DNA of 32,000 nucleotides from Methylorubrum extorquens. GTDB lineage: Bacteria > Pseudomonadota > Alphaproteobacteria > Rhizobiales > Beijerinckiaceae. The notes beneath the pieces are model-generated. The model had not been told where the DNA came from. It was given only the letters and a program-made list of their open reading frames with translations, and ran no database searches. The stretch spans positions 1,650,001 through 1,682,000 of the forward strand of contig LT962688.1 of NCBI GenBank assembly GCA_900234795.1, in the 5' to 3' direction. Position numbers and translations under genes: made by a program. Within the stretch, counting starts at the first letter, position 1. Every line of letters begins with the position of its first letter. Of the stretch, positions 5,177 through 20,167 are shown piece after piece.

Positions 5177-5214
5177 GGGGATAGGACACCCGCGCTGCGC
5201 CATTTCGGGCCGCG

Positions 5215-6210
5215 GTGGGACCCAGGGGGATTGGCGTGGCCGGCAGCGACGGGACGGAGGCCGACGAGGCCGAAGGGGCTGACAGCGATGAGGATCCGGT
5301 CGAGCGCGAGGCCGCGGCCTGGGTCGCGCGGCTCTCCTCCTCCGACGCCACGGAAGCCGACCACAGGGCCTTCGAGACCTGGCGCAAGGCCGATCCCGTC
5401 CACGCCGCGGTCTATGCCGAGATGGATGCGTTGTGGCGCCGGCTCGGGCATCTGCCCGATCCCCGCCCGCGCAAGACGTCGGACAAGACATCGAGCAAGA
5501 CACCGAAATCGCTCGCCGGCCTTGCCGCCGTCGCCCTGATCGCGGGCGCCCTGGCCTACGAGACCGGTCTCCTCGACCGGCTGCGCGCAGATCTGTGGAG
5601 CGGCGTCGGCGCCATCGAGCACGCGACGCTGCCCGATGGCAGCCGCGTCGATCTCAACACGGACACGGCGATCGCGGTGCGGTTCACCGAGGGGGAGCGC
5701 GGGATCGCGCTACTGCGCGGCGAGGCCAGTTTCGATGTCGTGCCCGATCGGAGCCGGCCCTTCGTCGTGCGCGGCGGCGGCCTGAGCGTGCGTGCGGTCG
5801 GAACCCGCTTCTTCCTGCGCGCGGACGGGGCGGACCGTCCCGTGGGCGTCGCGGAGGGGCGTGTCGATGTGTCGGCCGAGAGCGGGCGCGTCGTCGTCTC
5901 GGCCGGGGAGGAAGTCAGGATCGGCGGCGACGCCCTGCAGGTGGCGGCGGCGGATGTGGAGCGCGCCACAGCCTGGCGCGACGGCCGGCTGATCTATTCC
6001 GGAAAGGCGCTGGCGGCGGTCTTGACGGAACTGAACCGCTACCGCCGCGGGCGCATCGTGCTGCTCGACCGTGGGCTCGGCGAGCGGCGCGTGACCGGCG
6101 CGTTCGATGCCCGCAACACCGACGACGCCCTCGACGTGATCGCCGCGACCATGGGCACCCGCATCCGGCGGCTCTCGCCGCTGCTGGTGCTGGTCGGATC
6201 GCCCCTGTGA
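5215..6210 (+). CDS. FecR-family transmembrane anti-sigma factor / sensor
   Basis: The N-terminal anti-sigma domain pattern is present (EREAAAWVARLSSSDATEADHRAFETWRKADPVHAAVYAEMDALWRRL). One hydrophobic span follows (LAGLAAVALIAGALAY), then a periplasmic FecR domain (LPDGSRVDLNTDTAI..., GEASFDV). An alternative start is GTG 5236. Confidence 0.8.
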   Translation: MGPRGIGVAGSDGTEADEAEGADSDEDPVEREAAAWVARLSSSDATEADHRAFETWRKADPVHAAVYAEMDALWRRLGHLPDPRPRKTSDKTSSKTPKSLAGLAAVALIAGALAYETGLLDRLRADLWSGVGAIEHATLPDGSRVDLNTDTAIAVRFTEGERGIALLRGEASFDVVPDRSRPFVVRGGGLSVRAVGTRFFLRADGADRPVGVAEGRVDVSAESGRVVVSAGEEVRIGGDALQVAAADVERATAWRDGRLIYSGKALAAVLTELNRYRRGRIVLLDRGLGERRVTGAFDARNTDDALDVIAATMGTRIRRLSPLLVLVGSPL

Positions 6211-6252
6211 GCGGGGCGATGAGGGCGCGCGAAAAAAATCGCTCTGCCCACG

Positions 6253-6281
6253 TCAGGAGATGGCGCCTCCGTTGATCTTAA
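6253..6281 (+). repeat. Copy B of the duplicated motif (tcaggagatggcgcctccgttgatcttaa)
   Basis: Lies between the fecR-like stop (6210) and the receptor start (6345). It shares tcaggag-NN-ggcg-N5-gttgatct with copy A. Confidence 0.6.
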
Positions 6282-6344
6282 ACGTCGAGGGCGCGGAGAA
6301 CGCAGAGCGTGCCGCCCCTCCCGACGGATCGATGGGGCTTTGGT

Positions 6345-8900: not shown

Positions 8901-9037
8901 GAAACCGACACGTCGCTTCCAGCTCCGCCCTGCCCCGACATCGCGAAGGGGTAAGGGCGGGCCGCTCGCCCCTCAGCGCTCCGGCCTTCCGGCGGCGATC
9001 ACCGCCAAGCTGACCGGTCTGTGTGTTTTGTGGCTTC

Positions 9038-9053
9038 TGGCACGGGTCCTGCA
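9038..9053 (+). promoter_or_regulatory. Candidate sigma-54 (RpoN) -24/-12 promoter
   Basis: TGGCACGggtcCTGCA against the consensus TGGCACG-N4-TTGCW. The GG and GC are at correct spacing, with one mismatch. It lies 52 nt upstream of the ATG of the binding-protein gene. Confidence 0.5.
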
Positions 9054-9104
9054 ATGTGGTTTTTGACCACTTTGATGGATGCGTGGGAACTCGGGAGCCT
9101 CAGC

Positions 9105-10676
9105 ATGGCCGGTACAATGGACCGCAGACGGTTTCTTCAGGCGAGCGCCGCCGCTGTGGGTTTTGCCCAGATCAATCCCGACTTCCTGGTCTCCTCGGCC
9201 TTCGCCCAATCGGGCAAGCCGCTGGTCTTCCTCTCGGCCGAGAACATCACCGGCAACTGGGACCCGACCGCCCACACCACGCTCTCGCAGAAGAACATCG
9301 AGGGCTTCGTGATGGGCTTCCTGACCCGCACGCCGATGACCCTCGATGACCCCGGCAAGGTCGTCTACGAACTCGCCACCGACATCCGGTTGCTCGATCC
9401 GCACCGCCTGCAGATCAAGCTGCGCAAGGGCGTGCAGTTTCACGACGGCAAGCCGTTCGGGCCCGAGGACGTCAAGGCGACCTTCGAGTACGGCGCGGGC
9501 AAGGACCGGCCGGCGCAGTGGTATCCCGGCCCGACCGAGACGTTGACGATCACCACGCCCGACGACGAGACCGTGATCGTCGACACATCGAAGGGCGGCT
9601 ACCCCGCCCACCTCTTCATCTTCCTGGCTTCGTTCCTCCCGATCCTCTCGGCCAAGGACGTGGCCGAGGGGCCGGGCGGCGCCCTCACCCGGCGCCTGAA
9701 CGGCACCGGCCCGTTCCGCTTCGTCGAGCAGCGCGGCAACGACACCGTGCTCAAGGCCCATGACGGCTATTTCCGCGGCAAGCCGGGGATTCCCGGCATC
9801 AACTTCACCTTCACCGGCGATTCGACCACGCGGATGCTGTCGCTGATGAACGGCCAGGCCTCGATCGTCGAGCGGCTCGAACCCGAGCAGGTCGAGACGG
9901 TCAAGAACAACCCGAAGATCGCGATCAACGAGGTCGTCTCGGTCGAGAACAAGTATCTCTGGTTCCGCTGCTCCAAGCCGCCCTTCAACGACGTGCGGGT
10001 GCGCATGGCCGCCTGCCACTCGATCGACCGGGCGATGCTCTTGGAGATCCTCGGCGCGGCGGGCCACGCCTCGGCCAACTTCATCTCGCCGGTGAAGTTC
10101 GGCTACGTCGATCTGAAGAACTACCCGGCCTACGACCCGGCCAAGGCCCAGGCGCTGCTGGCCGAGGCGGGCTTCCCCAAGGGCAAGGGGCTGCCGCCGC
10201 TCGAATACATCACCTCGGTCGGGTTCTACCCGAAGACGAAGGAATACGGCGAGGTCATCACCGCGATGCTCAATGAGCAGGGCTTTCCGGTGAGCCTCAC
10301 GGTGCTGGAGCCGGCGGCCTGGAACGAGCGGCTCTATCATCGCCCCGGCGGCGGGCCCGGCCACATGGTCGATTGCGGCTGGTCCACCGCCTCGCCCGAG
10401 CCGGATCTGGTGCTGCGCACCCACTTCCACTCCTCCTCGCACCGCATCACCGGCATCGAGGATGCGCAGATCGATGCGAGCCTCGACAAGGAGCGCGCGG
10501 CGCCGACGCTGGAGGAGCGCAAGGCCATCCTCCAGAACGAGACGATGCCGCTGCTGGCCGCCAAGATGCCGGCGCTGTCGCTGTTCACTTCGGTGATGAT
10601 CCACGCGATGCAGCAGGAGCTGAAGGGCCTCTACATCTACCCGGACGGCTCGATCGACGCCTCGAAAACCGCCTGA
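9105..10676 (+). CDS. ABC transporter substrate-binding protein, family 5 (DppA/OppA/nickel/opine type), Tat-type signal
   Basis: Track ORF 9021..10676. ATG 9105 has GGGAG 7 nt upstream. MAGTMDRRRFLQASAAAVGFA is a twin-arginine leader. The family-5 layout is visible (PFRFVE..., GYFRGKPGI, LWFRCSKPPFNDVRVR). Confidence 0.85.
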   Translation: MAGTMDRRRFLQASAAAVGFAQINPDFLVSSAFAQSGKPLVFLSAENITGNWDPTAHTTLSQKNIEGFVMGFLTRTPMTLDDPGKVVYELATDIRLLDPHRLQIKLRKGVQFHDGKPFGPEDVKATFEYGAGKDRPAQWYPGPTETLTITTPDDETVIVDTSKGGYPAHLFIFLASFLPILSAKDVAEGPGGALTRRLNGTGPFRFVEQRGNDTVLKAHDGYFRGKPGIPGINFTFTGDSTTRMLSLMNGQASIVERLEPEQVETVKNNPKIAINEVVSVENKYLWFRCSKPPFNDVRVRMAACHSIDRAMLLEILGAAGHASANFISPVKFGYVDLKNYPAYDPAKAQALLAEAGFPKGKGLPPLEYITSVGFYPKTKEYGEVITAMLNEQGFPVSLTVLEPAAWNERLYHRPGGGPGHMVDCGWSTASPEPDLVLRTHFHSSSHRITGIEDAQIDASLDKERAAPTLEERKAILQNETMPLLAAKMPALSLFTSVMIHAMQQELKGLYIYPDGSIDASKTA

Positions 10677-10703
10677 CTGAACTTGTCCGCGCCCGGCGCG
10701 TGA

Positions 10704-10730
10704 CCCGGCCCGCCTCTGCGGGCGGCCGGG
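10704..10730 (+). other. GC-rich stem-loop just after the binding-protein gene (possible intra-operon mRNA stabiliser or attenuator)
   Basis: cccggcc-cgc-ctct-gcg-(ggc)-ggccggg. The outer 7-bp stem is perfect and no U-tract follows. Confidence 0.3.
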
Positions 10731-10769
10731 CCCCGCCCCGCCGATTCCGTCACCGGACCCGATGCCCCG

Positions 10770-11752
10770 ATGTTCGTTCTCAGTTTCCTCGCCCGGCGCC
10801 TCGCGCAGGGTGCGGTCATCATCTTCCTCGTCTCGCTGCTGATCTTCACCCTGCTGCGGGTGATGTCGGGCAACCCCGTGCGCCAGATGGTGGGCGGGAT
10901 GGCGCCCGACTCCCCTGGTGGAGCAGATCGCCACCACGATGGGCCTGCGCGATCCGATCATCGTGCAGTTCGGCCGCTACGCGGCAGGGGTGGTCCAGGG
11001 TGATCTCGGCCGCAGCTTCATGCGGCCGGCTAACGGCGCGGCGACGGGGGGCGCGAATTTCGACGACATGACCCGCGGCGAGCGGGCCGGGGGTCGGCGA
11101 TCTCATCCTCGACGCCCTGCCGATGACCCTGCAGCTCGCCGCCCTTGCGCTCGCCATCGCCCTGGTCTTCTCGGCCCTGCTCGGGATCGCGGCGGGCCTG
11201 CGTCCCGGTGGGTTCTTCGACCGGCTCGCCTTCGCGGTCTCCTCAATCTTCATCTCGATCCCGAATTTCTGGCTCGGCATCGTGCTCGCCCTGCTCCTGT
11301 CGGTGAAGCTCGGATGGCTGCCGGCGATCGGCTATGGCGGCTTCTCCTACACGGTGCTGCCGGCCCTGGTGCTCGCCGTCGAACTGTCGCCGGTGCTGAT
11401 CCGGACGCTGTCGAGCGCGGTGGCGGCGCAGATGGGCGAGTCTTACGTCGCCGTCGGCCATGTCCGCGGCCTGTCGCGCCCGCGCATCGTCGCCGCGCAT
11501 GCCCTGCGCAACGCCTCGGTGCCGCTCCTCAACCTGCTCGGCGTGCAGTTCTCCTCACTGCTCGGGGGCGTGATCATCGTCGAATACATCTTCGACTATC
11601 CCGGCCTCGGACTGCTGACGATCAACGCCGTGCTCCAGCGCGACTTCCCGCTGATCCAGGGCATCGCGATCGTCACCAGCGCGATTTTCGTCCTCATCAA
11701 CATCCTCGTCGATCTCGCGGCGACCACCATCGATCCGAGGCTCGAATATTGA
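10770..11752 (+). pseudogene. ABC transporter permease (DppB/OppB-like), frame broken twice at homopolymers
   Basis: Three track pieces: 10770..11003 (MFVLSFLARRLAQGAVIIFLVSLLIFTLLRVMSGNPVRQMVGGMAPD), the start of 10918..12675 (VEQIATTMGLRDPIIVQFGRYAAGVVQGDLGRSF) and 11123..11752 (the rest of the permease). Deleting one C in 10912-15 and one G in 11089-93 gives a continuous DppB-like protein. Confidence 0.8.
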
Positions 11753-12675
11753 TGGATGCCGTGGATTCCACCCTGACGCTGGCTCCGCCCCGCGTCGATG
11801 TCACGGCGTCGCGCTCGATCGGCCGGCGCATCCTCGGGCGCGCCGCCCGCTCCGGGGGCTTTCGCGTCGGCTTCGTCGTGCTCGCCCTCCTCGTGCTCGC
11901 CGCCGCGCTCTACCCGGAACTCAGCGGAATCGACCCGGCGATGCGGGATATCCGGGCGCGCCTGCTGCCGCCGCTGTTCCTCGGCGACAAGTGGAGCTGG
12001 GCGCACCCGCTCGGCACCGACCAGATCGGCCGCGACATGCTGGTGCGCTGCCTCGTGGGCCTGCGCTACTCGCTGCTGATCGGCGTGGCCTCGGTCGCCG
12101 TGACCGTCATCATCGGCTGCGCGCTGGGCACCGTCGCCGGCTATTTCGGCGGGCGCACCGACACGGTGATCATGCGGATCACCGACGCGCAGCTCTCGAT
12201 CCCGATGATCATCCTGGCGATCGCCGTGCTCGGCGCCGACCGCCCGACGATCCCGGCGATCATCCTCGTGCTCGGCCTGTCGAACTGGCCGGTCTATGCC
12301 CGCGTCATGCGCTCGGTGGTGATGGCCGAGCGCGGGCGCGAATACGTGCGGGCCGCGCAGGTCTCGGGCGCCACGCATCCGCGCATCATCCTCACGCTGC
12401 TGGTGCCGCTGTTGGTGCCGCCGCTGCTCTTCACCTCGGTGCTCGATGTCGCGCGGATGATGATCTTCGAATCGACGCTGGGCTTCCTCGGCCTCGGCGT
12501 GCAGCCGCCGACGCCGACCTTCGGCAGCATCATCGCCGACGGGCGCAAATACCTGCTCAACGCGTGGTGGATCGCCACCATGCCGGGCGTGTTCCTGTGC
12601 CTCACGCTCACCGGCATCAACCTGATCGGCGCCGCCTTCGAGCGTGCCCGCAACGCGATCCACGGGGGCGCCTGA
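11752..12675 (+). CDS. ABC transporter permease (DppC/OppC-like)
   Basis: The ATG overlaps the upstream TGA (TGATG). MDAVDSTL...HPLGTDQIGRDMLVRCLVGLRYSLLIG...; an EAA-like loop is present (EYVRAAQVSGATHPRIIL). Confidence 0.85.
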   Translation: MDAVDSTLTLAPPRVDVTASRSIGRRILGRAARSGGFRVGFVVLALLVLAAALYPELSGIDPAMRDIRARLLPPLFLGDKWSWAHPLGTDQIGRDMLVRCLVGLRYSLLIGVASVAVTVIIGCALGTVAGYFGGRTDTVIMRITDAQLSIPMIILAIAVLGADRPTIPAIILVLGLSNWPVYARVMRSVVMAERGREYVRAAQVSGATHPRIILTLLVPLLVPPLLFTSVLDVARMMIFESTLGFLGLGVQPPTPTFGSIIADGRKYLLNAWWIATMPGVFLCLTLTGINLIGAAFERARNAIHGGA

Positions 12676-14513
12676 TGGACCCGGTGCTCTCCGTCCGCGA
12701 CCTCTCGGTCGCCCTCACCCTCCCCGGGCGTGAGCGAATCATTCTCAATCGCATCAGCTTCGACGTCGCCCCGCGTGAGATCGTTGGCGTCGTCGGCGCC
12801 TCGGGCGCCGGCAAGACCGTGCTGTCGCGCGCCGTGGTCAACTGGATCACGGCCCCGCTCGCCATCCGCTCCGGCACCGTGTCCTTCCGCGGGCAGGATC
12901 TGCTGGCGCTGCCGCCGCGGGCGATGCGGCTCTTGCGCCGCGACATCGCCTATGTCGGCGCCGACCCGATGGGCGCCCTCGACCCGACCCTGCCGGTCGG
13001 GCGCCAGATCGTCGAGAAGCTGCGCGCCGTCATGCCCGAAGTGAGCCGAAAAGAGGCGCAGGCGCGCGTGATCGCCCTGCTCGATGCCGTGCGCATTCCC
13101 TCGGCCCCCGCGCGCTTCCACGATTACCCCTCGCAGTTCTCCGGCGGGATGATGCAGCGCGCGCTCATCGTCGACGCCATGGTCTCGAACCCGGCCCTGC
13201 TGGTCGCCGACAACGTCACCCAGCCCCTCGACGTGACGGTCGCCGCCCAGGTGATCCGCCTGATGCGCGAACTCACCGAGCGCTTCGAGACGGCGATCCT
13301 GTTCGTCTCCTCCTCGCTGCCCGTGGCACGGGAGGCAGCGAGCCGCACCCTGGTGATCGATGCCGGGCGTCTGGTCGAGGAGCAGCCGACCGAGGCACTG
13401 ATCGCGGCCCCGCGCCACGCCTATACCCGCGATCTCGTCGCGCAGATCCCGGTGATTTGGGGCGAGCGCCCGCGCCTGCCCGCGATGCCGAAGGCCCCCG
13501 GCGCGCGGCCGTCTCAGCCGATCATCAGCTTGCGGGACGTGTCGCAGACCTACCGGGTGAAGCGGCGCGGGAGCTTTGCCGGCACGAGCGCCCTGCGGGC
13601 GGTCCGCAATGTCACCTTCGACATCGCCCAGGGCGACAGCTTCGCGGTGGTGGGCGAATCCGGCTGCGGCAAGTCCACCCTGATGCGGCTTCTGAGCCGC
13701 CTGGAACGCCCGAGCGGCGGCAGCGTGCTGTGCGCGGGCCGCGACATCGCCGGCTTGTCGGGGGCCGAACTCCTCGGCTTCCGCCGCAAGCTGCAACTGG
13801 TGCTCCAAGACCCGTTCAACTCGCTGCCGCCGCGCACCGGCATCGGCGCCATGCTGGAAGCGCCCCTGCGCACCCATGGCTGGCGCGACCCGAGAAAGAT
13901 CCGCGAGCGGGTGCGCGCGGTGATGGACGATGTGGGCCTGCCCGTCGCACTCTACGACGACCTGCCGCTCGGGCTCTCGGCCGGGCAGCGCCAGCGCATC
14001 AACGTCGCCCGCGCCATGGTGCTCGAGCCTCAGATCCTGCTCATGGACGAGACACTTTCGGCCCTCGACCAGACCGAGCAGTTCAAGCTGCTGGCGCTGT
14101 TCGAGAAATTACAGCGCACGCACGGGCTGACCTACATCTACATCAGCCACGACCTCGCGATGGTGCGCAAAGCCTGCAACCGCATCGCGGTGATGTATCT
14201 CGGCGAGGTCGTCGAACTCGCCGACAACGAGCGCCTGTTCTTCGATCCCGGCCACCCCTACACCCGCGCCCTGCTCTCGGCGATGCCGGCTCTGGAGGCG
14301 CGGCGCTACCGGCCGGAGGATTGCCTGATGGAGGGCGAGCCGCCGAGCCCGATCGACCTGCCGCAGGGCTGCGCCTTCCGCTCGCGCTGCCCGCAGGCCT
14401 TCGACGCCTGCGCCACGCATCCCCCGCTCCTCACCGTGCGCGGCGCGCACGACTTCGCCGCCTGCCACCGCGTGCCGGGCGCCGGCGCCGCTCTGCTGGC
14501 GGGCGCTGCCTGA
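12675..14513 (+). CDS. Fused double ABC ATPase (DppD-DppF type)
   Basis: The ATG overlaps the upstream stop. Two Walker A motifs (GASGAGKT, GESGCGKS). Signature-like FSGGMMQR and LSAGQRQR. Walker B LLVAD and LLMDE. A C-terminal oligopeptide-type extension is present (CAFRSRCP). Confidence 0.9.
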   Translation: MDPVLSVRDLSVALTLPGRERIILNRISFDVAPREIVGVVGASGAGKTVLSRAVVNWITAPLAIRSGTVSFRGQDLLALPPRAMRLLRRDIAYVGADPMGALDPTLPVGRQIVEKLRAVMPEVSRKEAQARVIALLDAVRIPSAPARFHDYPSQFSGGMMQRALIVDAMVSNPALLVADNVTQPLDVTVAAQVIRLMRELTERFETAILFVSSSLPVAREAASRTLVIDAGRLVEEQPTEALIAAPRHAYTRDLVAQIPVIWGERPRLPAMPKAPGARPSQPIISLRDVSQTYRVKRRGSFAGTSALRAVRNVTFDIAQGDSFAVVGESGCGKSTLMRLLSRLERPSGGSVLCAGRDIAGLSGAELLGFRRKLQLVLQDPFNSLPPRTGIGAMLEAPLRTHGWRDPRKIRERVRAVMDDVGLPVALYDDLPLGLSAGQRQRINVARAMVLEPQILLMDETLSALDQTEQFKLLALFEKLQRTHGLTYIYISHDLAMVRKACNRIAVMYLGEVVELADNERLFFDPGHPYTRALLSAMPALEARRYRPEDCLMEGEPPSPIDLPQGCAFRSRCPQAFDACATHPPLLTVRGAHDFAACHRVPGAGAALLAGAA

Positions 14514-15838
14514 TGCCGCCCCTTCCCGAGACAACGATGACATCCATGCCCGACATAATGGCCTTCGCCCCCGTGCGGATCGACCCCGCCCGCCTCCAGG
14601 CGACGATGGAGGCGGTCTCCGCCTTCGGCGCCGGGCCGGACGGCGCCCTGACTCGCCTGACCCTGTCGCCGGAGGACGGGCAGGCGCGCGACTGGCTCGC
14701 CGCGTGGTTTTCCGCGCACGGCTTCACCCCGCGGGTCGATGCGATCGGCAACCAGTTCGGCTGTCTGGAACTGGCCGGACCCGGCGCGCCCACGGTGATG
14801 GTCGGCTCGCATCTCGACAGCCAGCCCAATGGCGGGCGCTTCGACGGCACGCTCGGCGTGCTCGCCGCCTGCGAAGCCATTCTTTCCGTGCGCGCGGCGC
14901 TCGAAGCGGCGGGCAGGATGTCGGCCTGCAACTTCACGGTCGCCAACTGGACCAACGAGGAGGGCGCCCGCTTCCAGCCGAGCCTGCTCGGCAGCAGCGT
15001 CTTCACCGGTGCGGCCGGGCTCGACTGGGCGCTGGCCCGCAGCGACGGCGACGGCGTCACCGTCGGCGAGGCCCTGTCGCGGATCGGCTATGCCGGGAGC
15101 GACGCCGTGCCGGTGCCGGACGCCTTCATCGAACTGCATATCGAGGGCGGGCCGATCCTCGAGCGCGAGGGCCTGCGCTTCGGGGCCTTCACCCGCTACT
15201 GGGGCGCCACCAAGTACCGCCTCGCTTTCCTCGGGCGCCAGGCCCATACCGGCCCGACGCCGATGGCCGAGCGGCGCGACGCGCTTCTTGGCGCCGCCTA
15301 CCTGATCGCCGACCTCAAGGCGATGACGGCCGATTACGGCCTCGACCTGCACACCTCCGTCGGCCGGCTCGAAGTGCGGCCGAACTCGCCCAACACCGTG
15401 CCGAGCGAGGCGGTTCTGTTCATCGAGCTGCGCTCCGGCTCGCCTGCGATCCTGGAGGAGGCCGAACTTCGGCTGAAGGCGGCCATTGATCTGGCCGCCG
15501 CGCGTGCGGAGGTGGGTCACGAGGTGCGCGCCATCGACCGGCGCGCCGCCGGCCCGATGGCGCCGGGCCTCGTGCGGCTCGCCGAGCGCGCGGGGGCGGC
15601 CAACGGCACGACGACGCGCCACCTCGACACGATCGGCGGCCACGACGCCGTCAGCCTCAGCGCGGTCTGCCCCTCGGTGGTGCTGGCCGTGCCCTGCCGC
15701 GGCGGCGTGATGCACCACCCGACCGAGTTCACGAGCCCGGAGGATCAGGCCTTCGGTACCCAGGTGCTGGCCGACATGCTGATGATCCTCGCCACCGAGG
15801 GCGTGGGCGCCCTCGAGACCGCGGGAGGGGACCGGTGA
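14513..15838 (+). CDS. Zn-dependent M20-type amidase, hydantoinase/carbamoylase family (N-carbamoyl-amino-acid / allantoate amidohydrolase-like)
   Basis: The ATG overlaps the ATPase stop. Motifs GSHLDSQPNGGRFDGTLGV, NWTNEEGARF, ELHIEGGPILE, GRQAHTGPTPM and GGHDA are visible. Confidence 0.8.
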   Translation: MPPLPETTMTSMPDIMAFAPVRIDPARLQATMEAVSAFGAGPDGALTRLTLSPEDGQARDWLAAWFSAHGFTPRVDAIGNQFGCLELAGPGAPTVMVGSHLDSQPNGGRFDGTLGVLAACEAILSVRAALEAAGRMSACNFTVANWTNEEGARFQPSLLGSSVFTGAAGLDWALARSDGDGVTVGEALSRIGYAGSDAVPVPDAFIELHIEGGPILEREGLRFGAFTRYWGATKYRLAFLGRQAHTGPTPMAERRDALLGAAYLIADLKAMTADYGLDLHTSVGRLEVRPNSPNTVPSEAVLFIELRSGSPAILEEAELRLKAAIDLAAARAEVGHEVRAIDRRAAGPMAPGLVRLAERAGAANGTTTRHLDTIGGHDAVSLSAVCPSVVLAVPCRGGVMHHPTEFTSPEDQAFGTQVLADMLMILATEGVGALETAGGDR

Positions 15839-16815
15839 AGACGCTGGGCACCCCCGAGGACGCGTCGGAGCGGCTGGCCGAGGCGGCCCTGGCGCAGGCT
15901 TTCTCCGCGCGGCCCGACCTTCGGGGCAAAGCGCCGCATTACGCCGTGGCGGTGCCGGGCCTCGCCTCGCCCTCCTATCACGGGGTCGAATCCACCACGT
16001 TCCACGTTGCCGAGACCGAGGGCGCCGAACCGAGCCTGTTCCTCAAGGTCTCCGAGCCCTGCGCCGCCGCGCTGCTCGATCCCGCCGCCGCCTTCCGCGG
16101 CGCGCAGACGGTCGCTGCGCTGGGCCTCGCGCCGGAACCGCTGCATTTCGCGGCGGATCAGGGCGCGATCCTGTTCCGGTGCCTCGGCCCAGATTGGCGC
16201 CCGGCCACCCTCGACAGGCTTCAGCAGCCGGACAGCATCGCCACGGTGATCGAGGCCTTCCGCCGGATCGGCGCGGGCGAAGCCCTCGGCCGACGCTGGA
16301 GCGTGTTCGACGCGATCCGTGACCTTCGCGCCCTGCTGGGGCCGGAGGCCGATGCCCTGCCGCCGGACGCGTGGTTCCTGTTCGACTGGGCCGAGGCGAT
16401 CGAGGCGGCGCTGACCGCCGCCGGCACGGACATCCGCCCGGCCCATGCCGACCTGCACGCCTCCAACCTGCTGTTCGGCCCCGGCGGCGCCCTGCAACTC
16501 GTCGATTTCGACATGGCCTGCGACACCGACCCCCATTACCAGCTCGGCGCCTTCCTCAACGAGGCCTGCACCTTCGAGGCGCCGATGAAGGCCGGCATCG
16601 AGATGGCGGAGGGGCGCTTCCGTCCGGACGTGTTCAACCGCGCCCGCGCCTATGCCGCCGCCGACGACCTGCACTGGGCCTTGCGCGCGCTGGCCATGGA
16701 CCGGCTCTCGCCGCGCCGCGGGCTCGAATTTCGCAAATACGCCGCGTGGCGCTTCCTGCGCTGCCGGATGCTCGTCGGCCGGCCGGGCTTCGAGGAAACC
16801 CTGAGGGCGCTGTGA
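15835..16815 (+). CDS. Kinase-fold phosphotransferase (APH / choline-kinase superfamily), paralogue 1
   Basis: The GTG start overlaps the amidase stop (GTGA). Candidate ATP lysine in LFLKV, catalytic loop HADLHASNLLF, and Mg-binding LVDFDMA. No clear glycine-rich N-terminal loop was seen. Confidence 0.65.
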   Translation: MKTLGTPEDASERLAEAALAQAFSARPDLRGKAPHYAVAVPGLASPSYHGVESTTFHVAETEGAEPSLFLKVSEPCAAALLDPAAAFRGAQTVAALGLAPEPLHFAADQGAILFRCLGPDWRPATLDRLQQPDSIATVIEAFRRIGAGEALGRRWSVFDAIRDLRALLGPEADALPPDAWFLFDWAEAIEAALTAAGTDIRPAHADLHASNLLFGPGGALQLVDFDMACDTDPHYQLGAFLNEACTFEAPMKAGIEMAEGRFRPDVFNRARAYAAADDLHWALRALAMDRLSPRRGLEFRKYAAWRFLRCRMLVGRPGFEETLRAL

Positions 16816-16850
16816 TGGCCCGCTCGACGACGATTATCCCGTTGCTTCCC

Positions 16851-16958
16851 CCTCATCCTGAGGGGCCGCGAAGCGGCCTCGAAGGGGGCTCCCGTTCCCG
16901 CGCGAACCCCGGAGCCCCCTTCGAGGCCTCCGCTTTGCTTCGGCGCCTCAGGACGAAG
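16851..16958. repeat. Nested-palindrome intergenic element (REP-like), family 1, copy 1
   Basis: The inner inverted repeat is perfect: cctcgaagggggctcc (16877-16892) and ggagcccccttcgagg (16911-16926). The outer pair is cctcatcctgagg and cctcaggacgaag (11/13). It shares modules with 28160-28275. Confidence 0.8.
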
Positions 16959-17037
16959 TTCGGAGCAAGGGCCTGATTGCGCGCGCAAAGACCTGCGGTT
17001 TCGGCCCGCCGACCGAACGAGCTGTGAGGAGACGACC

Positions 17038-17973
17038 ATGATCGCTCTGGGCCATGCCGCCACCGAGGCTGAGCACGCCTTCGAGGCGGCCCTGCGCACC
17101 GTCCCGCGCTGGCAGGGGCGCCCGACGCGCTACCGCCCGGTGCTCGGCGGGATCAGCAACGTCAACTGGCGCGTCGAGATCGAGGGCGAGCCGCATCCCT
17201 ATTTCGTCAAGATGCCGGGCCGCGGCACCGAGATGTTCATCGACCGCGCCGCCGCCCGCGCCGCCAGCCGGCAGGCGGAGGTGATCGGGCTCGGCCCCCG
17301 CACCTTCGACGACCTCGACGCCCATGGCATCGAGATCGCCGAGTTCGTGGACGGGCGCCGGCCCTCGACCAACCGCGACTTCGCCGACGCGGCCCTGCGG
17401 GCGGAGGCGATGCGCGTCTATCGCCGCTTCCACGCGGCCCCGCTCCTGCCGCTGACCAAGACCGTGTTCGACATGATCGATGAGCACGACCGGCAGGCGG
17501 CCGAACTCGGCGCGCTCCTGCCGCCGGATCAGGCCTGGCTCACCCGCCAGACCCGGCTGGCGCGGGCGGCGCTCGAAGCCTCGGGCCTCGACCTCGTGCC
17601 GTGCTTCAACGATCCGATGCCGGGCAACTTCCTCCTCGGCGAGGACGGCTCGATCCTGCTGATCGACTTCGAGTACGCCTCCAACAACGACCGGCTCTAC
17701 GACATCGCGATCTGGAGCGGGGAGATGTTCTTCCCCGAAAGCGTCGATCGCGAACTAATCGAACAATATTTCGGCCGCTACGACGAGGCGCTGTTCGCGC
17801 GCCTGATGGTGCACAAGGCGCTGGCCGACGTGAAGTGGTCGACCTGGGCGATGGTGCAGAACCGGATCTCCACCCTCGACTTCGATTTCTACAAATACGG
17901 GATCTGGAAGCACATGCGCGCCCGCTCGATCATGAACGACCCGCGCTGGCCGCTCTTCCTGAAGGCGCTCTGA
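17038..17973 (+). CDS. Kinase-fold phosphotransferase (choline/ethanolamine-kinase-like), paralogue 2
   Basis: GAGGAG lies 7 nt upstream of the ATG. Motifs: GGISNVNWRVE (nucleotide loop), YFVKMPG, CFNDPMPGNFLL (a Brenner-like motif with Phe where His is usual), LIDFEYASNNDRLYDIA. Confidence 0.65.
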   Translation: MIALGHAATEAEHAFEAALRTVPRWQGRPTRYRPVLGGISNVNWRVEIEGEPHPYFVKMPGRGTEMFIDRAAARAASRQAEVIGLGPRTFDDLDAHGIEIAEFVDGRRPSTNRDFADAALRAEAMRVYRRFHAAPLLPLTKTVFDMIDEHDRQAAELGALLPPDQAWLTRQTRLARAALEASGLDLVPCFNDPMPGNFLLGEDGSILLIDFEYASNNDRLYDIAIWSGEMFFPESVDRELIEQYFGRYDEALFARLMVHKALADVKWSTWAMVQNRISTLDFDFYKYGIWKHMRARSIMNDPRWPLFLKAL

Positions 17974-17976
17974 GCG

Positions 17977-18783
17977 ATGGACTTGGCCTTGCCCGCGACC
18001 GACCCTCTCGCCCCGGAATCCATCCTCGCCTTTGCCGCCGAACTGGCCGAGGCCGCGCGCCCGATCGCGCTCGCCTATTTCCGCACCCCGCTCGACATCG
18101 TGACGAAGGCCGACGAGAGCCCGGTGACGTTGGCCGATCGCGCCATCGAGGTGCGCCTGCGCGGCCTGATCGAGGCGCGGTTTCCCGATCACGGCATCTT
18201 CGGCGAGGAGATGGGAGTGAAGCCCGGAGCCACGCCCGGCAGCGGCCCGGTCTGGGTGATCGACCCGATCGACGGCACCAAGAGCTTCGTCACCGGCTTG
18301 CCGCTGTTCGGCACCCTGGTCGCCTTCCTCGACGGTGGCGTACCGCTCGTCGGGCTGATCGACATGCCGGCTTTGGGCGAGCGCTGGACCGGCGTGCCGG
18401 GGCAGGCGCGGTTCGGGGCCGAGCCCGCCCGCACCAGCACCTGCCGGAGCCTGTCCGCGGCGCGCTTCTTCACCACCTCGCCCGAGGGCTTCACCGGGGC
18501 GGACGAGGCACGCTACCGCCGTCTCAGCGCAGCGACAGCCCTGCGCCGCTTCGGCGGCGATTGCTACGCCTACGGCCTGCTGGCCTCCGGCCATTGCGAC
18601 CTGATCGCCGAGACCGGCCTGCAACCTTACGATTACATGGCGCTGGTGCCGGTGATCCGCGCGGCGGGCGGGGTCATCACCGACTGGAGCGGCGAAGATC
18701 TCACCCTCGCTTCCGACGGGCGGGTGCTCGCGGCGGCGACGCCGGACCTGCACGCCGAGGCTTTGGCGATCCTGCGGGCGTAG
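17977..18783 (+). CDS. Inositol-monophosphatase-fold phosphatase, HisN (histidinol-phosphatase)-like
   Basis: Motifs KADESPVTLADRAIE, FGEEMG, WVIDPIDGTKSFVTGLPLFGTLVA and GDCYAYGLLASGHCDL. It starts 3 nt after the kinase 2 stop. Confidence 0.8.
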   Translation: MDLALPATDPLAPESILAFAAELAEAARPIALAYFRTPLDIVTKADESPVTLADRAIEVRLRGLIEARFPDHGIFGEEMGVKPGATPGSGPVWVIDPIDGTKSFVTGLPLFGTLVAFLDGGVPLVGLIDMPALGERWTGVPGQARFGAEPARTSTCRSLSAARFFTTSPEGFTGADEARYRRLSAATALRRFGGDCYAYGLLASGHCDLIAETGLQPYDYMALVPVIRAAGGVITDWSGEDLTLASDGRVLAAATPDLHAEALAILRA

Positions 18784-18907
18784 GGAGACCTGAGACCGCC
18801 GGCTTCCCCGCGTCGCGGTTTGCCAAGGGGATGTCGCTGAGGTGGAAGCGACGGGGCCCCCGCCGAACAATAATTCCCGACAGCCAGATACGGCTCGGGA
18901 GGTCCCC

Positions 18908-20167
18908 ATGCTCGATGTGACGCCGACCCCGCTTCAGCGCCTGCTGCGCGAGCGTCGCCCCGGCTACACTCTCGCGGCCCCGTTCTACCTCAGCCCCGAG
19001 GTGTTCGAGGCCGACATGGAGATCATCTTCGGCCGCCACTGGATCTATGTCGGCGTCGAGCCCGACGTGCCGGAGGCCGGCGACGTCATGGTCGTCGAGA
19101 TCGGCAAGACCTCGGTCGCGATCGTGCGCGACGACGACAACGCGATCCGCGCCTTCCACAATGTCTGCCGCCATCGCGGCGCCCGGCTCGTCCATGACGA
19201 GAAGTCCACGGTCGGCAACCTCGTCTGCCGCTACCATTCCTGGACCTACGACCTCACCGGCAACCTGATCCATGCCGAGCATATGGGTCCGGACTTCAAG
19301 AAGAGCTGCCACGGCCTCAAGCCCGTGCACATCCGCTCGCTCGCGGGCCTGCTGTTCATCTGCCTCGCCGACCAGCCCCCGGCCGATTTCGACGAGATGG
19401 CCGCAAAGCTTGGTCCCTATATCGAGCCGCACAACGTGCGCGACACCAAGGTCGCCTTCCAGAAGGACATCATCGAGCCCGGCAACTGGAAGCTCACGAT
19501 GGAGAACAACCGCGAGTGCTACCATTGCGGGGCCAACCATCCCGAGCTGACCGTGCCGCTCTTCGCCTACGGCTTCGGCTTCGCGCCCGAGGAGATGGAC
19601 GAGCACGACCGCGCCAACGCCGAGCGCTACGGCTGCCTGCTCAAGACCCGCCACGGCGAGTGGGAGGCGGAAGGCCTGCCGTCGAAGGAGATCGACGAGC
19701 TCGACACGATGATCACGGGCTTCCGCACCGAGCGGCTGCCGCTCGACGGCGAGGGCGAGTCCCACACCCTCGACACCAAGGCCGCCTGCAAGCGGCTGCT
19801 CGGCAACCTCACCAGCGCCAAGCTCGGCGGGCTCTCGGTCTGGACGCAGCCGAATTCCTGGCACCACTTCCTCGGCGACCACATCGTCACCTTCTCGGTG
19901 CTGCCGCTCGATGCCGAGCGCTCGCTGCTGCGCACCAAGTGGCTCGTGCACAAGGATGCGGTCGAGGGCGTCGATTACGATCTCGCCAACCTCACCGGCG
20001 TCTGGGAAGCCACGAACGATCAGGACAGCGAACTCGTCGGCATCTGCCAGCAGGGTGTGGCGAGCCCGGCCTACGAGCCCGGCCCCTACTCGCCGCATAC
20101 CGAGATGCTCGTGGAGAAGTTCTGCAACTGGTATGTCGGCCGCATGGCCGCGCATCTGGGACGCTGA
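18908..20167 (+). CDS. gbcA: Rieske [2Fe-2S] glycine-betaine monooxygenase/demethylase, oxygenase component
   Basis: ATG 18908 has GGGAGG upstream. Rieske motif CRHRG...CRYHSW. Catalytic-domain motifs NWKLTMENNRECYHCGANHPEL and TKWLVHKDAVEGVDYD match my recollection of Pseudomonas GbcA. Confidence 0.8.
   Translation: MLDVTPTPLQRLLRERRPGYTLAAPFYLSPEVFEADMEIIFGRHWIYVGVEPDVPEAGDVMVVEIGKTSVAIVRDDDNAIRAFHNVCRHRGARLVHDEKSTVGNLVCRYHSWTYDLTGNLIHAEHMGPDFKKSCHGLKPVHIRSLAGLLFICLADQPPADFDEMAAKLGPYIEPHNVRDTKVAFQKDIIEPGNWKLTMENNRECYHCGANHPELTVPLFAYGFGFAPEEMDEHDRANAERYGCLLKTRHGEWEAEGLPSKEIDELDTMITGFRTERLPLDGEGESHTLDTKAACKRLLGNLTSAKLGGLSVWTQPNSWHHFLGDHIVTFSVLPLDAERSLLRTKWLVHKDAVEGVDYDLANLTGVWEATNDQDSELVGICQQGVASPAYEPGPYSPHTEMLVEKFCNWYVGRMAAHLGR

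What the first reader, a model, noticed from the sequence alone, without database searches (positions are those of the whole stretch)
9105..18783. Unassigned importer-amidase-kinase-kinase-phosphatase module fused to the head of the glycine-betaine demethylation operons
Four enzymes with no pathway I can name sit between a family-5 (DppA/opine-type) ABC importer and gbcAB. They are a hydantoinase/carbamoylase-family M20 amidase (GSHLDSQPNGGRFDGTLGV), two distantly related kinase-fold proteins (HADLHASN...DFD; GGISNVNWRV...NDPMPGN...DFEY) and a HisN-like IMPase-fold phosphatase (WVIDPIDGTKSF). Start/stop overlaps at 11752, 12675, 14513 and 15835 couple the importer, the amidase and kinase 1 translationally. 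The next genes follow on the same strand with gaps of 222, 3 and 124 nt, leading into gbcA. Characterised betaine/choline loci, as far as I know, use ProX/ChoX-type binding proteins rather than DppA-type ones. A kinase pair plus a phosphatase in one operon implies a phosphorylated intermediate or two substrates. My hypothesis (inference only) is uptake of an amide- or ureido-linked amino-alcohol or N-methylated conjugate. The amidase would release a product that passes through a phospho-intermediate and into the betaine/sarcosine/serine route encoded downstream.
Basis: partly seen in the sequence, partly recalled or inferred. Interest (0 to 1): 0.7.

Follow-up and report, generated by a model that had tools for sequence, protein, structure and literature searches.

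The report
Orphan ethanolamine-releasing kinase–amidase catabolic module
The genes are a real, widely conserved and mobile bacterial gene set that most likely takes up a small nitrogen-blocked amino-alcohol, phosphorylates it, unblocks it and releases ethanolamine; its position next to the glycine-betaine genes here is a local accident, and its substrate is still unknown.

Summary
One thing was missed: the first permease carries two +1 homopolymer insertions, probably sequencing errors.

The window is Methylorubrum extorquens-like. Importer, M20 amidase and both kinases are co-conserved in about 60 of 64 fully flanked loci, from at least 262 species genomes. So the module is real.

The link to betaine is not supported. 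gbcAB follows in only 4 of 80 loci, and synteny breaks exactly at the phosphatase stop codon.

Elsewhere the same core is joined to ethanolamine-disposal genes:
- EutBC, or a full eut microcompartment
- the gamma-glutamyl-ethanolamine route
- a phospho-lyase-like gene

The importer is swapped for a sodium symporter or a urea-transporter homologue. The phosphatase is a relative of whichever histidinol-phosphatase type is usual for that bacterial class (IMPase-type or HAD-IB).

Best model, by inference: a small ureido- or N-acyl-ethanolamine is phosphorylated first and then deblocked to phosphoethanolamine. This is then dephosphorylated to ethanolamine.

I found no publication on this gene set.

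The parts
9105..10676 (+). Periplasmic solute-binding protein, family 5 (Dpp/opine type), with a twin-arginine-like signal peptide (MDRRRFLQ)
   Evidence: PF00496 at 216 bits. No NCBIfam equivalog reached. The best solved relatives are only about 110 bits: DppA and 6tfq. AgaA (6hlx) and AccA score about 75 bits. Orthologues are 75-97% identical in 67 of 80 loci.
10770..11752 (+). ABC permease 1 (DppB-like), interrupted in this sequence by two +1 insertions at 10912 and 11089
   Evidence: Three-frame translation. Alignment to the intact 326-aa L001 gene. These are the only uncompensated indels in the module. BPD_transp_1 at 121 bits on the C-terminal part.
11752..12675 (+). ABC permease 2 (DppC-like)
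   Evidence: BPD_transp_1 at 85 bits; OppC_N match below its cut-off (22 vs 23.9 bits). TGATG overlap with permease 1.
12675..14513 (+). Fused double ATPase (DppD/DppF-like)
   Evidence: Two ABC_tran and two oligo_HPY stretches. TGATG overlaps at both ends.
14513..15838 (+). M20 amidase of the hydantoinase/carbamoylase family. It keeps the anion-binding Arg307 but has Gly212 where canonical carbamoylases have the carbamoyl-orienting Gln.
   Evidence: TIGR01879 at 285 bits and NF006772 at 754 bits. Residue mapping onto 8c46 and its paper. Conservation across 85 homologues.
15835..16815 (+). Kinase 1: APH/choline-kinase fold, paralogue of kinase 2
   Evidence: PF01636 at 45.6 bits. 27% identical to K2. 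The HxDxxxSN and LvDFD catalytic motifs are conserved in 69 homologues. Found next to K2 in 79 of 80 loci.
16816..17022 (.). Inserted palindromic element between K1 and K2. It is not part of the ancestral module.
   Evidence: Absent from L001, L003 and L015; present in L002. Nested inverted repeats at 16853-16956. The 222-nt K1-K2 spacer (16816-17037) that contains it folds at -117.7 kcal/mol, z = -4.7.
17038..17973 (+). Kinase 2: choline/ethanolamine kinase family
   Evidence: PF01633 at 67.5 bits. The closest solved structures are choline/ethanolamine kinase family proteins. Invariant NDPMPGN and IDFEY motifs in A1. 57-99% identity across the 80 loci.
17977..18783 (+). IMPase-fold phosphatase of the histidinol-phosphate phosphatase (HisN) type. 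The predicted substrate here is a 2-aminoalkyl phosphate such as phosphoethanolamine.
   Evidence: TIGR02067 at 275.9 against a cut-off of 275.15. All published HisN motifs are present (sequence, criteria). Best PDB hits are 5eq7, 4n81 and 5yht. Present in 47 of 80 loci. Replaced by a HAD-IB phosphatase resembling histidinol-phosphatase in beta/gamma-proteobacteria.
18784..18907 (.). Synteny breakpoint between the module and the gbcA-like gene
   Evidence: Homology to L005, L007 and L008 ends at 18778-18784. In L012 EutBC follows at this point instead. The scan found no promoter-like or terminator-like site here.

Best explanation
The stretch 9105-18783 is one copy of a conserved, horizontally mobile catabolic module. 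Its invariant heart is an amidase plus two paralogous choline/ethanolamine-type kinases.

I propose the following route.
1. A small, uncharged, nitrogen-blocked amino-alcohol is taken up. An N-carbamoyl (ureido) or N-acyl derivative of ethanolamine, or of a C3 analogue, is most likely.
2. The kinases phosphorylate its hydroxyl group.
3. The amidase removes the blocking group from the phosphorylated compound. This gives phosphoethanolamine, plus CO2 and NH3 if the group is carbamoyl.
4. The histidinol-phosphatase-type enzyme removes the phosphate and releases ethanolamine.
5. In other genomes the ethanolamine, or phosphoethanolamine directly, is consumed by genes attached to the module. These are EutBC or the eut microcompartment, the gamma-glutamyl-ethanolamine route, or a phospho-lyase-like enzyme.

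In relatives the phosphorylated intermediate is probably the inducer sensed by the DeoR regulator. That regulator has been deleted in this lineage.

The adjacency to gbcAB-dgcAB is a lineage-specific rearrangement and has no demonstrated functional meaning.

Shown: gene content, co-conservation, swapping of parts, family memberships and active-site conservation.
Inferred: the substrate class, the order of steps and the identity of the intermediates.
For: Co-conservation. K2 relatives were confirmed in 262 stretches of one-genome-per-species contigs. Among 64 loci with full flanks, the importer is present in 60, the amidase in 62, K1 in 64, DeoR in 53 and the HisN-like phosphatase in 38. The module also lies on 84 plasmid records. 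A copy flanked by transposase genes sits on a Klebsiella contig carrying plasmid replication genes.

Ethanolamine as product. Non-homologous ethanolamine-disposal modules are attached in independent arrangements:
- EutB-EutC directly downstream in 23 of 64 loci.
- EutBC right after K2 in Paracoccus yeei pYEE1.
- EutBC divergent from the module in L079 and on pRi1724.
- EutBC after a HAD phosphatase in Paraburkholderia.
- A complete eut microcompartment (EutN, EutA, EutB, EutC, BMC, ALDH, EutQ) in a Propionibacteriaceae genome.
- The four-enzyme gamma-glutamyl route (GS-like, SDR, ALDH, C26 hydrolase) in Arthrobacter and Leucobacter. This matches the S. coelicolor ethanolamine pathway described in PMC9397018.
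- A class-III-aminotransferase-like gene next to K2 in Rhodococcus, and with microcompartment shell genes in L. ruminantium.

A 2-aminoalkyl phosphate as intermediate. The phosphatase is HisN-type in alpha-proteobacteria and actinobacteria (TIGR02067 229-306 bits). In Pseudomonas and Paraburkholderia it is HAD-IB of the Pseudomonas histidinol-phosphatase type (NF052360 244 and 225 bits, cut-off 280).

A small urea-like or amide substrate.
- The importer is exchanged for a sodium:solute symporter. In Leucobacter it is exchanged for a urea-transporter-family protein (PF03253; TIGR03441 151 bits).
- The M20 enzyme belongs to the carbamoylase family.
- An amidase-signature amidase can accompany it. 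It is the only amidase found at the locus in Methylocella silvestris, Thioclava and L. ruminantium.

Kinase before amidase.
- The amidase keeps the anion-binding Arg in 85 of 85 homologues. Ethanolamine derivatives have no carboxylate.
- PMC10952681 reports that this enzyme family accepts phosphonate or sulfonate in place of the carboxylate.
- With the amidase acting first, the kinase and the phosphatase would form a futile cycle.
Against: - No substrate has been identified. N-carbamoylethanolamine is not a known natural metabolite.
- Both kinases carry the choline-kinase motif that in characterised members accompanies binding of a cationic amine (own knowledge). A neutral blocked amine fits this less well.
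- The need for two kinases is unexplained. They could be a heterodimer, serve two substrates, or act in two steps.
- In 71 of 85 amidases, including the window's, the Gln that orients the carbamoyl group in canonical carbamoylases is Gly. The acyl group may therefore not be a plain carbamoyl.
- The phosphatase meets every published sequence criterion for a true histidinol-phosphate phosphatase. Its real substrate could be histidinol phosphate.
- Phosphorylating and then dephosphorylating costs one ATP with no obvious return.
- In this window the regulator is missing and one permease reads as frameshifted.
Confidence: 0.6

Rival explanations
1. The module delivers a choline-like or N-methylated amino-alcohol. 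After dephosphorylation this is oxidised to glycine betaine and demethylated by the GbcAB-DgcAB system encoded downstream. In Methylorubrum the two form one functional unit.
For: K2 is a choline/ethanolamine-kinase family member. gbcA follows on the same strand after 124 nt, with no terminator-like site found. The adjacency is kept in four related species. In other genera the same position is occupied by genes that consume the released amino-alcohol, so the position could be meaningful.
Against: The adjacency occurs in only 4 of 80 loci, and synteny breaks exactly at the phosphatase stop codon. Other Methylorubrum/Methylobacterium genomes have either EutBC (L012, L013) or neither EutBC nor gbcAB at that point. 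I found no choline dehydrogenase or betaine-aldehyde dehydrogenase among the ORFs examined in the window. Every other attached module deals with a primary amino-alcohol.
Confidence: 0.1
2. Amidase-first route. The amidase frees ethanolamine from its conjugate. The kinases then make phosphoethanolamine, as in known amino-alcohol kinase plus phospho-lyase pathways. The phosphatase is a safety valve or regulator, not a pathway step.
For: Kinase plus class-III-aminotransferase-like gene pairs occur in the Rhodococcus and Leucobacter ruminantium versions. This resembles the known kinase/phospho-lyase logic (own knowledge: mycobacterial aminopropanol microcompartment; AGXT2L1). The kinases carry the choline-kinase motif.
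Against: In most genomes no phospho-lyase gene is attached, while a phosphatase and EutBC are. Kinase and phosphatase would then cancel each other. The amidase's conserved anion-binding Arg would have no partner on an unphosphorylated ethanolamine conjugate.
Confidence: 0.15
3. The phosphatase is simply a histidinol-phosphate phosphatase for histidine biosynthesis. It is not part of the pathway, or the pathway handles a histidinol-containing or histidine-derived compound.
For: TIGR02067 is passed, though barely, and all HisN motifs are present. PGAP names the orthologues hisN. A paralogous cluster lies on the mikimopine and cucumopine Ri plasmids. On pRi1724 it lies beside an FGase-family (N-formylglutamate amidohydrolase) gene.
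Against: It is present in only 47 of 80 loci. It sits on plasmids: large Agrobacterium plasmids, pRi1724, pYEE1 and others. It is replaced by the other histidinol-phosphatase type in beta/gamma-proteobacteria at the same place, just before EutBC. It keeps company with ethanolamine genes, not his genes.
Confidence: 0.08
4. Detoxification or resistance: APH-type kinases and an amidase inactivate an imported peptide-like antibiotic or antimetabolite.
For: The APH fold. A weak similarity to corramycin phosphotransferase and to GntI. A Dpp-type importer, which is a common entry route for such compounds (own knowledge).
Against: A dedicated high-affinity importer, a catabolic-type repressor and attached ethanolamine-degrading enzymes all argue for nutrition. 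The kinases are closest to choline/ethanolamine kinases.
Confidence: 0.03

Closest known systems
Amino-alcohol kinase plus phospho-lyase catabolism (mycobacterial aminopropanol/aminoacetone microcompartment; animal ethanolamine kinase plus AGXT2L1/ETNPPL). Own knowledge.
   Same: A kinase of the APH/choline-kinase fold makes an amino-alcohol phosphate. In the Rhodococcus and Leucobacter ruminantium versions a class-III-aminotransferase-like gene, and in the latter shell-protein genes, accompany the kinases.
   Different: The window and most relatives have no lyase. They have an amidase, a second kinase, an importer and a phosphatase. The proposed kinase substrate is a blocked amino-alcohol, not a free one.
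N-acetylglucosamine/N-acetylgalactosamine catabolism (NagK-NagA-NagB; the DeoR-type regulator AgaR). Own knowledge.
   Same: The logic of steps: phosphorylate the hydroxyl of an N-acylated amino-alcohol, deacylate the phosphorylated compound, then remove the amine. The regulator is of the family that usually senses phosphorylated intermediates.
   Different: The enzyme families are unrelated. An extra dephosphorylation step is present. The substrate is not a sugar.
Ethanolamine utilisation (eutBC, eut microcompartment) and the actinobacterial gamma-glutamyl-ethanolamide route (GlnA4; PMC9397018)
   Same: These are the modules physically attached to the core in other genomes. They define the product.
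   Different: None of them is present in the window. The module acts upstream of them and is not part of any described eut locus.
acc operon for agrocinopines on pTiC58 (AccR, AccA-E, AccF, AccG). Own knowledge.
   Same: A DeoR-family repressor, a family-5 binding-protein ABC importer and an IMPase-family phosphatase acting on a phosphorylated intermediate. AccA is among the solved relatives of the binding protein, at about 75 bits.
   Different: In acc the substrate arrives already phosphorylated and is cut by a phosphodiesterase. Here there are two kinases and an amidase and no phosphodiesterase.
Hydantoinase/carbamoylase family amidases (beta-ureidopropionase, L-carbamoylase, allantoate amidohydrolase)
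   Same: Family membership, metal ligands, catalytic Glu and anion-binding Arg are all conserved. The family is known to accept phosphonate or sulfonate analogues.
   Different: The carbamoyl-orienting Gln is Gly in this orthologue group. No hydantoinase is present. The genomic context is amino-alcohol catabolism, not pyrimidine or purine catabolism.
GbcAB-DgcAB glycine-betaine/dimethylglycine demethylation
   Same: It is the physical neighbour in this window: gbcA-like, gbcB, dgcA-like, dgcB-like and ETF genes.
   Different: It is not co-conserved with the module (4 of 80 loci). The gbcA-like protein itself scores below the NCBIfam equivalog cut-off (448 against 670).

Membership tests
Choline/ethanolamine kinase family (PF01633), kinase 2 | Profile score above Pfam's gathering threshold | tested here: met
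   67.5 bits against a cut-off of 29. The closest solved structures are choline/ethanolamine kinase family proteins 3dxq and LicA 4r77.
Choline/ethanolamine kinase family (PF01633), kinase 2 | Catalytic loop (xNDxxxxN) and choline-kinase motif (IDFEYxxxN...D...E) | tested here: met
   NDPMPGN and IDFEYASNNDRLYD are invariant or nearly invariant in 16 diverse orthologues. The motif definition is from my own knowledge.
Choline/ethanolamine kinase family (PF01633), kinase 2 | Phosphorylates choline or ethanolamine | not testable with these tools
   Needs an enzyme assay.
Choline/ethanolamine kinase family (PF01633), kinase 1 | Profile score above the gathering threshold | tested here: not met
   28.3 bits against 29. 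It passes APH PF01636 instead, at 45.6 against 23.2. The catalytic HxDxxxSN and DFD motifs are conserved in 69 homologues.
IMPase-type histidinol-phosphate phosphatase (HisN, TIGR02067) | Equivalog score cut-off | tested here: met
   275.9 against 275.15, a marginal pass. Cluster-linked homologues elsewhere score 229-306.
IMPase-type histidinol-phosphate phosphatase (HisN, TIGR02067) | HisN sequence motifs 1-5 of Kulis-Horn et al. 2017, especially motif 5 (R-aromatic-G-G-D-x-Y-x-Y) | tested here: met
   KADESPVTLAD, GEE, WVIDPIDGTK, GLPLFGTL and RRFGGDCYAY are all present (sequence, criteria).
IMPase-type histidinol-phosphate phosphatase (HisN, TIGR02067) | Serves histidine biosynthesis as the cell's histidinol-phosphatase | tested here: inconclusive
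   The context argues against it: the gene is optional within the cluster (47 of 80), plasmid-borne in many hosts, and next to EutBC. Whether this genome has a second hisN could not be checked.
Hydantoinase/carbamoylase family amidase (TIGR01879) | Profile score; metal ligands, catalytic Glu and anion-binding Arg | tested here: met
   285 bits against 204. H100, D111, E149, E150, H209, H401 and R307 are invariant in 85 homologues.
Hydantoinase/carbamoylase family amidase (TIGR01879) | Gln that orients the carbamoyl group (Gln196 of RrCbAA) | tested here: not met
   Gly212 in the window and in 71 of 85 homologues; Cys in 6; Gln in 8. The seven Gln forms whose loci were identified (L083-L086, L090-L092) lie in loci that also encode an amidase-signature amidase.
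Dpp/Opp-type ABC importer | Family-5 binding protein, two BPD_transp_1 permeases, ATPase(s) with an oligo_HPY tail | tested here: met
Dpp/Opp-type ABC importer | All components intact | tested here: not met
   Permease 1 has two frame-shifting +1 insertions in this sequence. These are probably artefacts, because the same kind of error occurs twice more in the window.
Glycine-betaine demethylation locus (gbcAB-dgcAB) | Co-conservation of the module with gbcAB | tested here: not met
   4 of 80 loci. The synteny break lies at the phosphatase stop codon.
Ethanolamine utilisation (eut) locus | Presence of EutB and EutC | tested here: not met
   No EutB or EutC homologue in the window at E <= 1e-5. 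They are present beside the module in 23 of 64 fully flanked loci and in several plasmid and actinobacterial versions.
acc-type (agrocinopine) catabolic operon | Phosphodiesterase (AccF) acting on an imported phosphodiester | tested here: not met
   No such gene is in the window module or in the relatives examined. The family definition is from my own knowledge.

The most novel reading that the evidence does not exclude
The locus encodes an undescribed 'kinase-first' route for small ureido- or N-acyl-ethanolamines. An ATP-dependent phosphorylation gives the blocked amino-alcohol the anionic handle that a carbamoylase-type amidase needs. The phosphoethanolamine formed is then handled by dedicated phosphoethanolamine phosphatases. 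These appear to have been recruited separately from the IMPase-type and the HAD-IB-type histidinol-phosphate phosphatases. The module is mobile and present in at least 262 species genomes. Carriers include plant symbionts and pathogens, leaf methylotrophs, and a Klebsiella contig with plasmid replication genes.
Probability: 0.4. Interest if true: 0.7.

Novelty: new variant of a known kind. Interest (0 to 1): 0.55.

Why it matters
If the model is right, this is an unassigned and widespread route into ethanolamine metabolism. It would name a function for proteins now annotated as 'phosphotransferase', 'Zn-dependent hydrolase' and, probably wrongly, 'histidinol-phosphatase hisN'.

It would give a clear example of two unrelated histidinol-phosphatase scaffolds taking on what looks like the same new job. 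It would also point to a nutrient that plant-associated, marine and clinical bacteria all compete for and that nobody has identified.

The comparative data narrow the ligand search to small, neutral urea-like or amide derivatives of C2-C3 amino-alcohols. The question can therefore be tested directly. For genome annotation, it also shows that the betaine context in Methylorubrum should not be used to infer the module's function.

Tried and rejected
- Literature. Ten full-text searches on combinations of ethanolamine ammonia-lyase, choline/ethanolamine kinase, amidase, DeoR, hisN, N-carbamoyl-/hydroxyethyl-urea, N-acetylethanolamine and the Ri-plasmid opines found nothing on this gene set. The LBA9402 Ri-plasmid paper does not mention the cluster.
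- Solved structures. No orthologue with a bound ligand exists for the binding protein, the amidase or the kinases.
- Promoter and terminator scan of 8700-19100. No promoter-like site and only one terminator-like site, on the minus strand, no more than expected by chance. This is uninformative for a 70% GC alpha-proteobacterium.
- Agrobacterium C58 fitness data. None of the 30 matching plasmid records is a C58 plasmid, so I did not pursue C58 data.
- Substrates considered and set aside:
  - Pantothenate, thiamine-breakdown products, cobinamide and muropeptides. Each has an amidase-plus-kinase logic, but none yields ethanolamine.
There is no link to the conserved partners.
  - Opines such as mikimopine or cucumopine. 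The chromosomal module occurs in many bacteria not known to carry Ti or Ri plasmids.
  - Long-chain N-acylethanolamines. The transporters seen are a symporter and a urea-channel homologue.
- Gene decay. I considered that the frameshifts mean the module is decaying. I rejected this as the main reading, because four identical homopolymer +1 errors are spread over unrelated genes.

Full report
**1. What is in the window**

The window is about 70% GC. Kinase 2 is 99% identical to a Methylorubrum extorquens protein. The DNA of the module is about 93% identical to Methylobacterium sp. R2-1, Leaf123, M. aminovorans and M. thiocyanatum.

- a family-5 binding protein (9105-10676)
- two permeases (10770-11752 and 11752-12675)
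- a fused double ATPase (12675-14513)
- a hydantoinase/carbamoylase-family M20 amidase (14513-15838)
- an APH-fold kinase, K1 (15835-16815)
- a choline/ethanolamine-kinase-family kinase, K2 (17038-17973)
- an IMPase-fold phosphatase (17977-18783) that just passes the HisN equivalog model (275.9 against 275.15 bits)

These are followed by gbcA-like, gbcB, dgcA-like, dgcB-like and ETF genes. The four start/stop overlaps and the gaps of 222, 3 and 124 nt are exact. K1 and K2 are full-length paralogues at 27% identity.

**2. Corrections to the observation**

Permease 1 is split over three frames by single-base insertions in a C-run at 10912 and a G-run at 11089. The relatives that are about 93% identical have an intact 326-aa gene. 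Two more uncompensated +1 insertions in G/C runs lie at 25277 and 25976, in the dgcB-like and etf genes. Four errors of one kind in 32 kb, in unrelated genes, look like a sequencing artefact and not gene decay.

The DeoR regulator gene that lies between the ATPase and the amidase in most relatives, including M. thiocyanatum, has been cleanly lost in the window and its nearest relatives.

The 222-nt spacer between K1 and K2 consists of a 207-nt insertion absent from L001, L003 and L015. It carries nested inverted repeats, and the spacer folds into a long hairpin of -117.7 kcal/mol, z = -4.7.

**3. The module is real**

A scan of one genome per species found 262 stretches encoding K2 relatives, and I fetched 80 loci. 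Among the 64 loci with enough flank on both sides:

| Feature | Loci with it (of 64) |
|---|---|
| Importer | 60 |
| Amidase | 62 |
| K1 | 64 |
| DeoR regulator | 53 |
| HisN-like phosphatase | 38 |
| EutB/EutC | 23 |
| gbcAB | 4 |

Carriers include Methylobacterium, Aureimonas, Agrobacterium, Rhizobium, Neorhizobium, Bradyrhizobium, Mesorhizobium, Phyllobacterium, Beijerinckiaceae, Skermanella, Acidisoma, Devosia and Janthinobacterium. The module is also on 84 plasmid records. A transposase-flanked copy lies on a Klebsiella contig that carries plasmid replication genes. Chance juxtaposition is excluded.

**4. The betaine link is not supported**

gbcAB-dgcAB follows the phosphatase only in the window and four close relatives. 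Homology with M. rhodesianum, M. populi and M. zatmanii ends at 18778-18784, which is the phosphatase stop codon. In M. fujisawaense, EutBC occupies that position.

The scan found neither a promoter nor a terminator in the 124-nt gap. Read-through in this strain therefore cannot be excluded. Nothing suggests a shared pathway, however.

**5. What the module is attached to elsewhere**

| Host | Arrangement |
|---|---|
| Agrobacterium, Neorhizobium, Bradyrhizobium, Tardiphaga, some Methylobacterium and Aureimonas | phosphatase immediately followed by EutB-EutC |
| Paracoccus yeei pYEE1 | EutBC directly after K2; the phosphatase is moved upstream |
| A Beijerinckiaceae genome (L079); pRi1724 | EutBC divergent from the module |
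| Paraburkholderia sprentiae | AS amidase, DeoR, M20, K1, K2, small membrane protein, sodium:solute symporter, HAD phosphatase, EutB, EutC |
| A Propionibacteriaceae genome | K1-K2-M20 runs straight into EutN, EutA, EutB, EutC, shell proteins, aldehyde dehydrogenase and EutQ |
| Arthrobacter and Leucobacter chromiireducens | GS-like enzyme, short-chain dehydrogenase, aldehyde dehydrogenase and gamma-glutamyl hydrolase as neighbours |
| Rhodococcus | a class-III-aminotransferase-like gene follows K2 |
| Leucobacter ruminantium | K1-K2 sit beside aldehyde dehydrogenase, shell-protein genes and such an aminotransferase-like gene |

(AS amidase = amidase-signature amidase, PF01425.)

The Arthrobacter and Leucobacter set has the composition of the Streptomyces coelicolor ethanolamine pathway (PMC9397018). 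The Rhodococcus gene best matches the C-terminal domains of two long fusion families and, less well, the lyase PbfA. The L. ruminantium layout resembles the mycobacterial amino-alcohol microcompartment (own knowledge).

Three or four non-homologous ways of disposing of ethanolamine or phosphoethanolamine, attached in independent arrangements, identify the product as an ethanolamine-type amino-alcohol.

**6. The phosphatase**

- In alpha-proteobacteria and actinobacteria it is HisN-type (TIGR02067 229-306 bits).
- In Pseudomonas oryzihabitans and Paraburkholderia the phosphatase at the same place is a HAD-IB enzyme. Its best model is the Pseudomonas-type histidinol-phosphatase (NF052360, 244 and 225 bits, below the cut-off of 280).
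- In both settings the phosphatase thus resembles the histidinol-phosphatase type known from that class. This is HisN in Rhizobiales and actinobacteria (PMC5516325) and HAD-IB in beta/gamma-proteobacteria (PMC10804674).
- Histidinol phosphate is a 2-aminoalkyl phosphate, and phosphoethanolamine is its minimal core. This convergence is the strongest evidence for a free-amine, phosphorylated intermediate.
- Caveat: the window's protein has all five published HisN motifs. Its nearest solved relatives are 5eq7, 4n81 and the M. tuberculosis histidinol-phosphatase 5yht. To my knowledge 5eq7 is the Medicago histidinol-phosphatase. By sequence alone it cannot be told apart from a true histidinol-phosphatase.

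**7. The amidase**

It belongs to the carbamoylase family. Mapping onto the Rhizobium radiobacter enzyme 8c46 and its paper gave these results across 85 homologues:
- The metal ligands, catalytic Glu149, His401 and the Arg that binds the substrate's acid group (Arg307) are invariant.
- The Gln that orients the carbamoyl group is Gly in 71, Cys in 6 and Gln in 8.
- The seven Gln forms whose loci I identified lie in loci that also encode an amidase-signature amidase.

That second amidase accompanies the M20 enzyme in gamma/beta-proteobacteria, actinobacteria and pRi1724. It is the only amidase found at the locus in Methylocella silvestris, Thioclava and L. ruminantium. The paper notes that this enzyme family also hydrolyses analogues in which the carboxylate is replaced by a phosphonic or sulfonic acid group.

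**8. The importer is interchangeable**

Three forms occur:
- the Dpp-type ABC system in alpha-proteobacteria
- a sodium:solute symporter with a small membrane protein in gamma/beta-proteobacteria and actinobacteria
- a divergent urea-transporter-family protein in Leucobacter chromiireducens (PF03253; TIGR03441 151 bits against a cut-off of 274.6)

In Beijerinckiaceae an OprB porin accompanies the genes. In two Methylocella species urease genes are adjacent. The urea-channel homologue, the carbamoylase family and the interchangeable amidase-signature amidase (its best-scoring named families include the AtzE and allophanate-hydrolase types) all point to a small, neutral, urea-like or amide compound.

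**9. Model and order of steps (inference)**

If the amidase acted first, the kinases and the phosphatase would undo each other. If the kinases act first on the blocked amino-alcohol, every variant makes sense:
- The phosphate supplies the anionic group that the amidase's conserved Arg needs.
- The amidase releases phosphoethanolamine.
- Phosphoethanolamine goes either to a phosphatase and then to EutBC or gamma-glutamylation, or to a phospho-lyase.
- The phosphorylated intermediate is the natural signal for a DeoR-type regulator.

The precedent for 'phosphorylate, then deacylate, then deaminate' is NagK-NagA-NagB (own knowledge).

Unexplained points:
- why there are two kinases
- the Gly-for-Gln change in the amidase
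- the cost of one ATP per molecule
- the natural source of such a compound. N-carbamoylethanolamine appears in the searchable literature only as a synthetic chemical.

**10. Literature and limits**

No paper in the searchable library deals with this gene set. Subscription journals are not covered. The substrate assignment is inference throughout, and nothing here tests enzyme activity.

**Verdict**

- The connection to betaine catabolism is not supported.
- The module is an orphan, mobile, ethanolamine-releasing pathway whose substrate remains to be found.

Noticed in passing
window 10912, 11089, 25277, 25976: Four uncompensated single-base insertions relative to relatives about 88-94% identical. 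Each lengthens a C or G run. They split permease 1, the dgcB-like gene and an etf gene across frames. The pattern suggests homopolymer sequencing errors in this assembly.
   Followed up: yes
window 16816-17022: A 207-nt insertion between K1 and K2. It carries nested inverted repeats (16853-16956), and the spacer containing it forms a very stable hairpin (-117.7 kcal/mol, z -4.7). It is present in Leaf123 and absent from L001, L003 and L015. It looks like a small palindromic mobile or REP-type element. Only one copy is in the window.
   Followed up: partly
window 14513 (ATPase/amidase junction): The DeoR-family regulator gene found here in most relatives, including M. thiocyanatum, has been precisely deleted in the window, L001-L003, L005, L007 and L008. 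The ATPase stop now overlaps the amidase start. The module may be constitutive or controlled differently in this lineage.
   Followed up: partly
L083 (pRi1724, 68995-85476) and pRi2659: A complete paralogous copy (K2 about 53% identical) lies on the mikimopine and cucumopine Ri plasmids. On pRi1724 it is flanked by EutCB, an FGase-family (N-formylglutamate amidohydrolase) gene, an amidase-signature amidase, a second DeoR gene and a chemoreceptor gene. Whether it relates to opine use is unknown.
   Followed up: partly
amidase residue 212 (window about 15146-15148) and homologues: The carbamoyl-orienting Gln of canonical carbamoylases is Gly or Cys in 77 of 85 homologues. Gln is retained in 8. 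The seven of these whose loci I identified (L083-L086, L090-L092) all lie beside an amidase-signature amidase. One Gly form (Pseudosulfitobacter) also has such a neighbour.
   Followed up: partly
window 18908-20167: The gbcA-like Rieske oxygenase scores 448 bits against the GbcA equivalog cut-off of 670, and gbcB scores 386 against 500. Their assignment to glycine betaine rests on similarity and on the dgcAB/ETF neighbours, not on equivalog membership.
   Followed up: no
window 4590-8900: A TonB-dependent siderophore-type receptor (6309-8900; TIGR01783 319 bits) lies immediately upstream of the module. A match to it is seen only in six close Methylorubrum/Methylobacterium relatives (L001-L003, L005, L015 and, by DNA, its 3' end). 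The ORFs at 4590-6275 upstream of it were not examined.
   Followed up: no
L081, L082, L072 (Methylocella tundrae and M. silvestris): The module, or K1-K2 plus an amidase-signature amidase, lies next to the urease gene cluster. In M. tundrae it also lies next to a CN-hydrolase and a gene with a DMFA2_C (dimethylformamidase-type) domain, forming a nitrogen-scavenging neighbourhood.
   Followed up: no
L091 (Klebsiella pneumoniae complex contig): The seven-gene symporter version of the module sits between transposase genes (IS110- and DDE-type). The contig also carries Rep3 and CcdAB genes, so it looks plasmid-derived. The same K2 protein is indexed in 69 blocks of the public assembly collection (24 carrying contigs were read). 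The module therefore also circulates in clinical Enterobacteriaceae.
   Followed up: no
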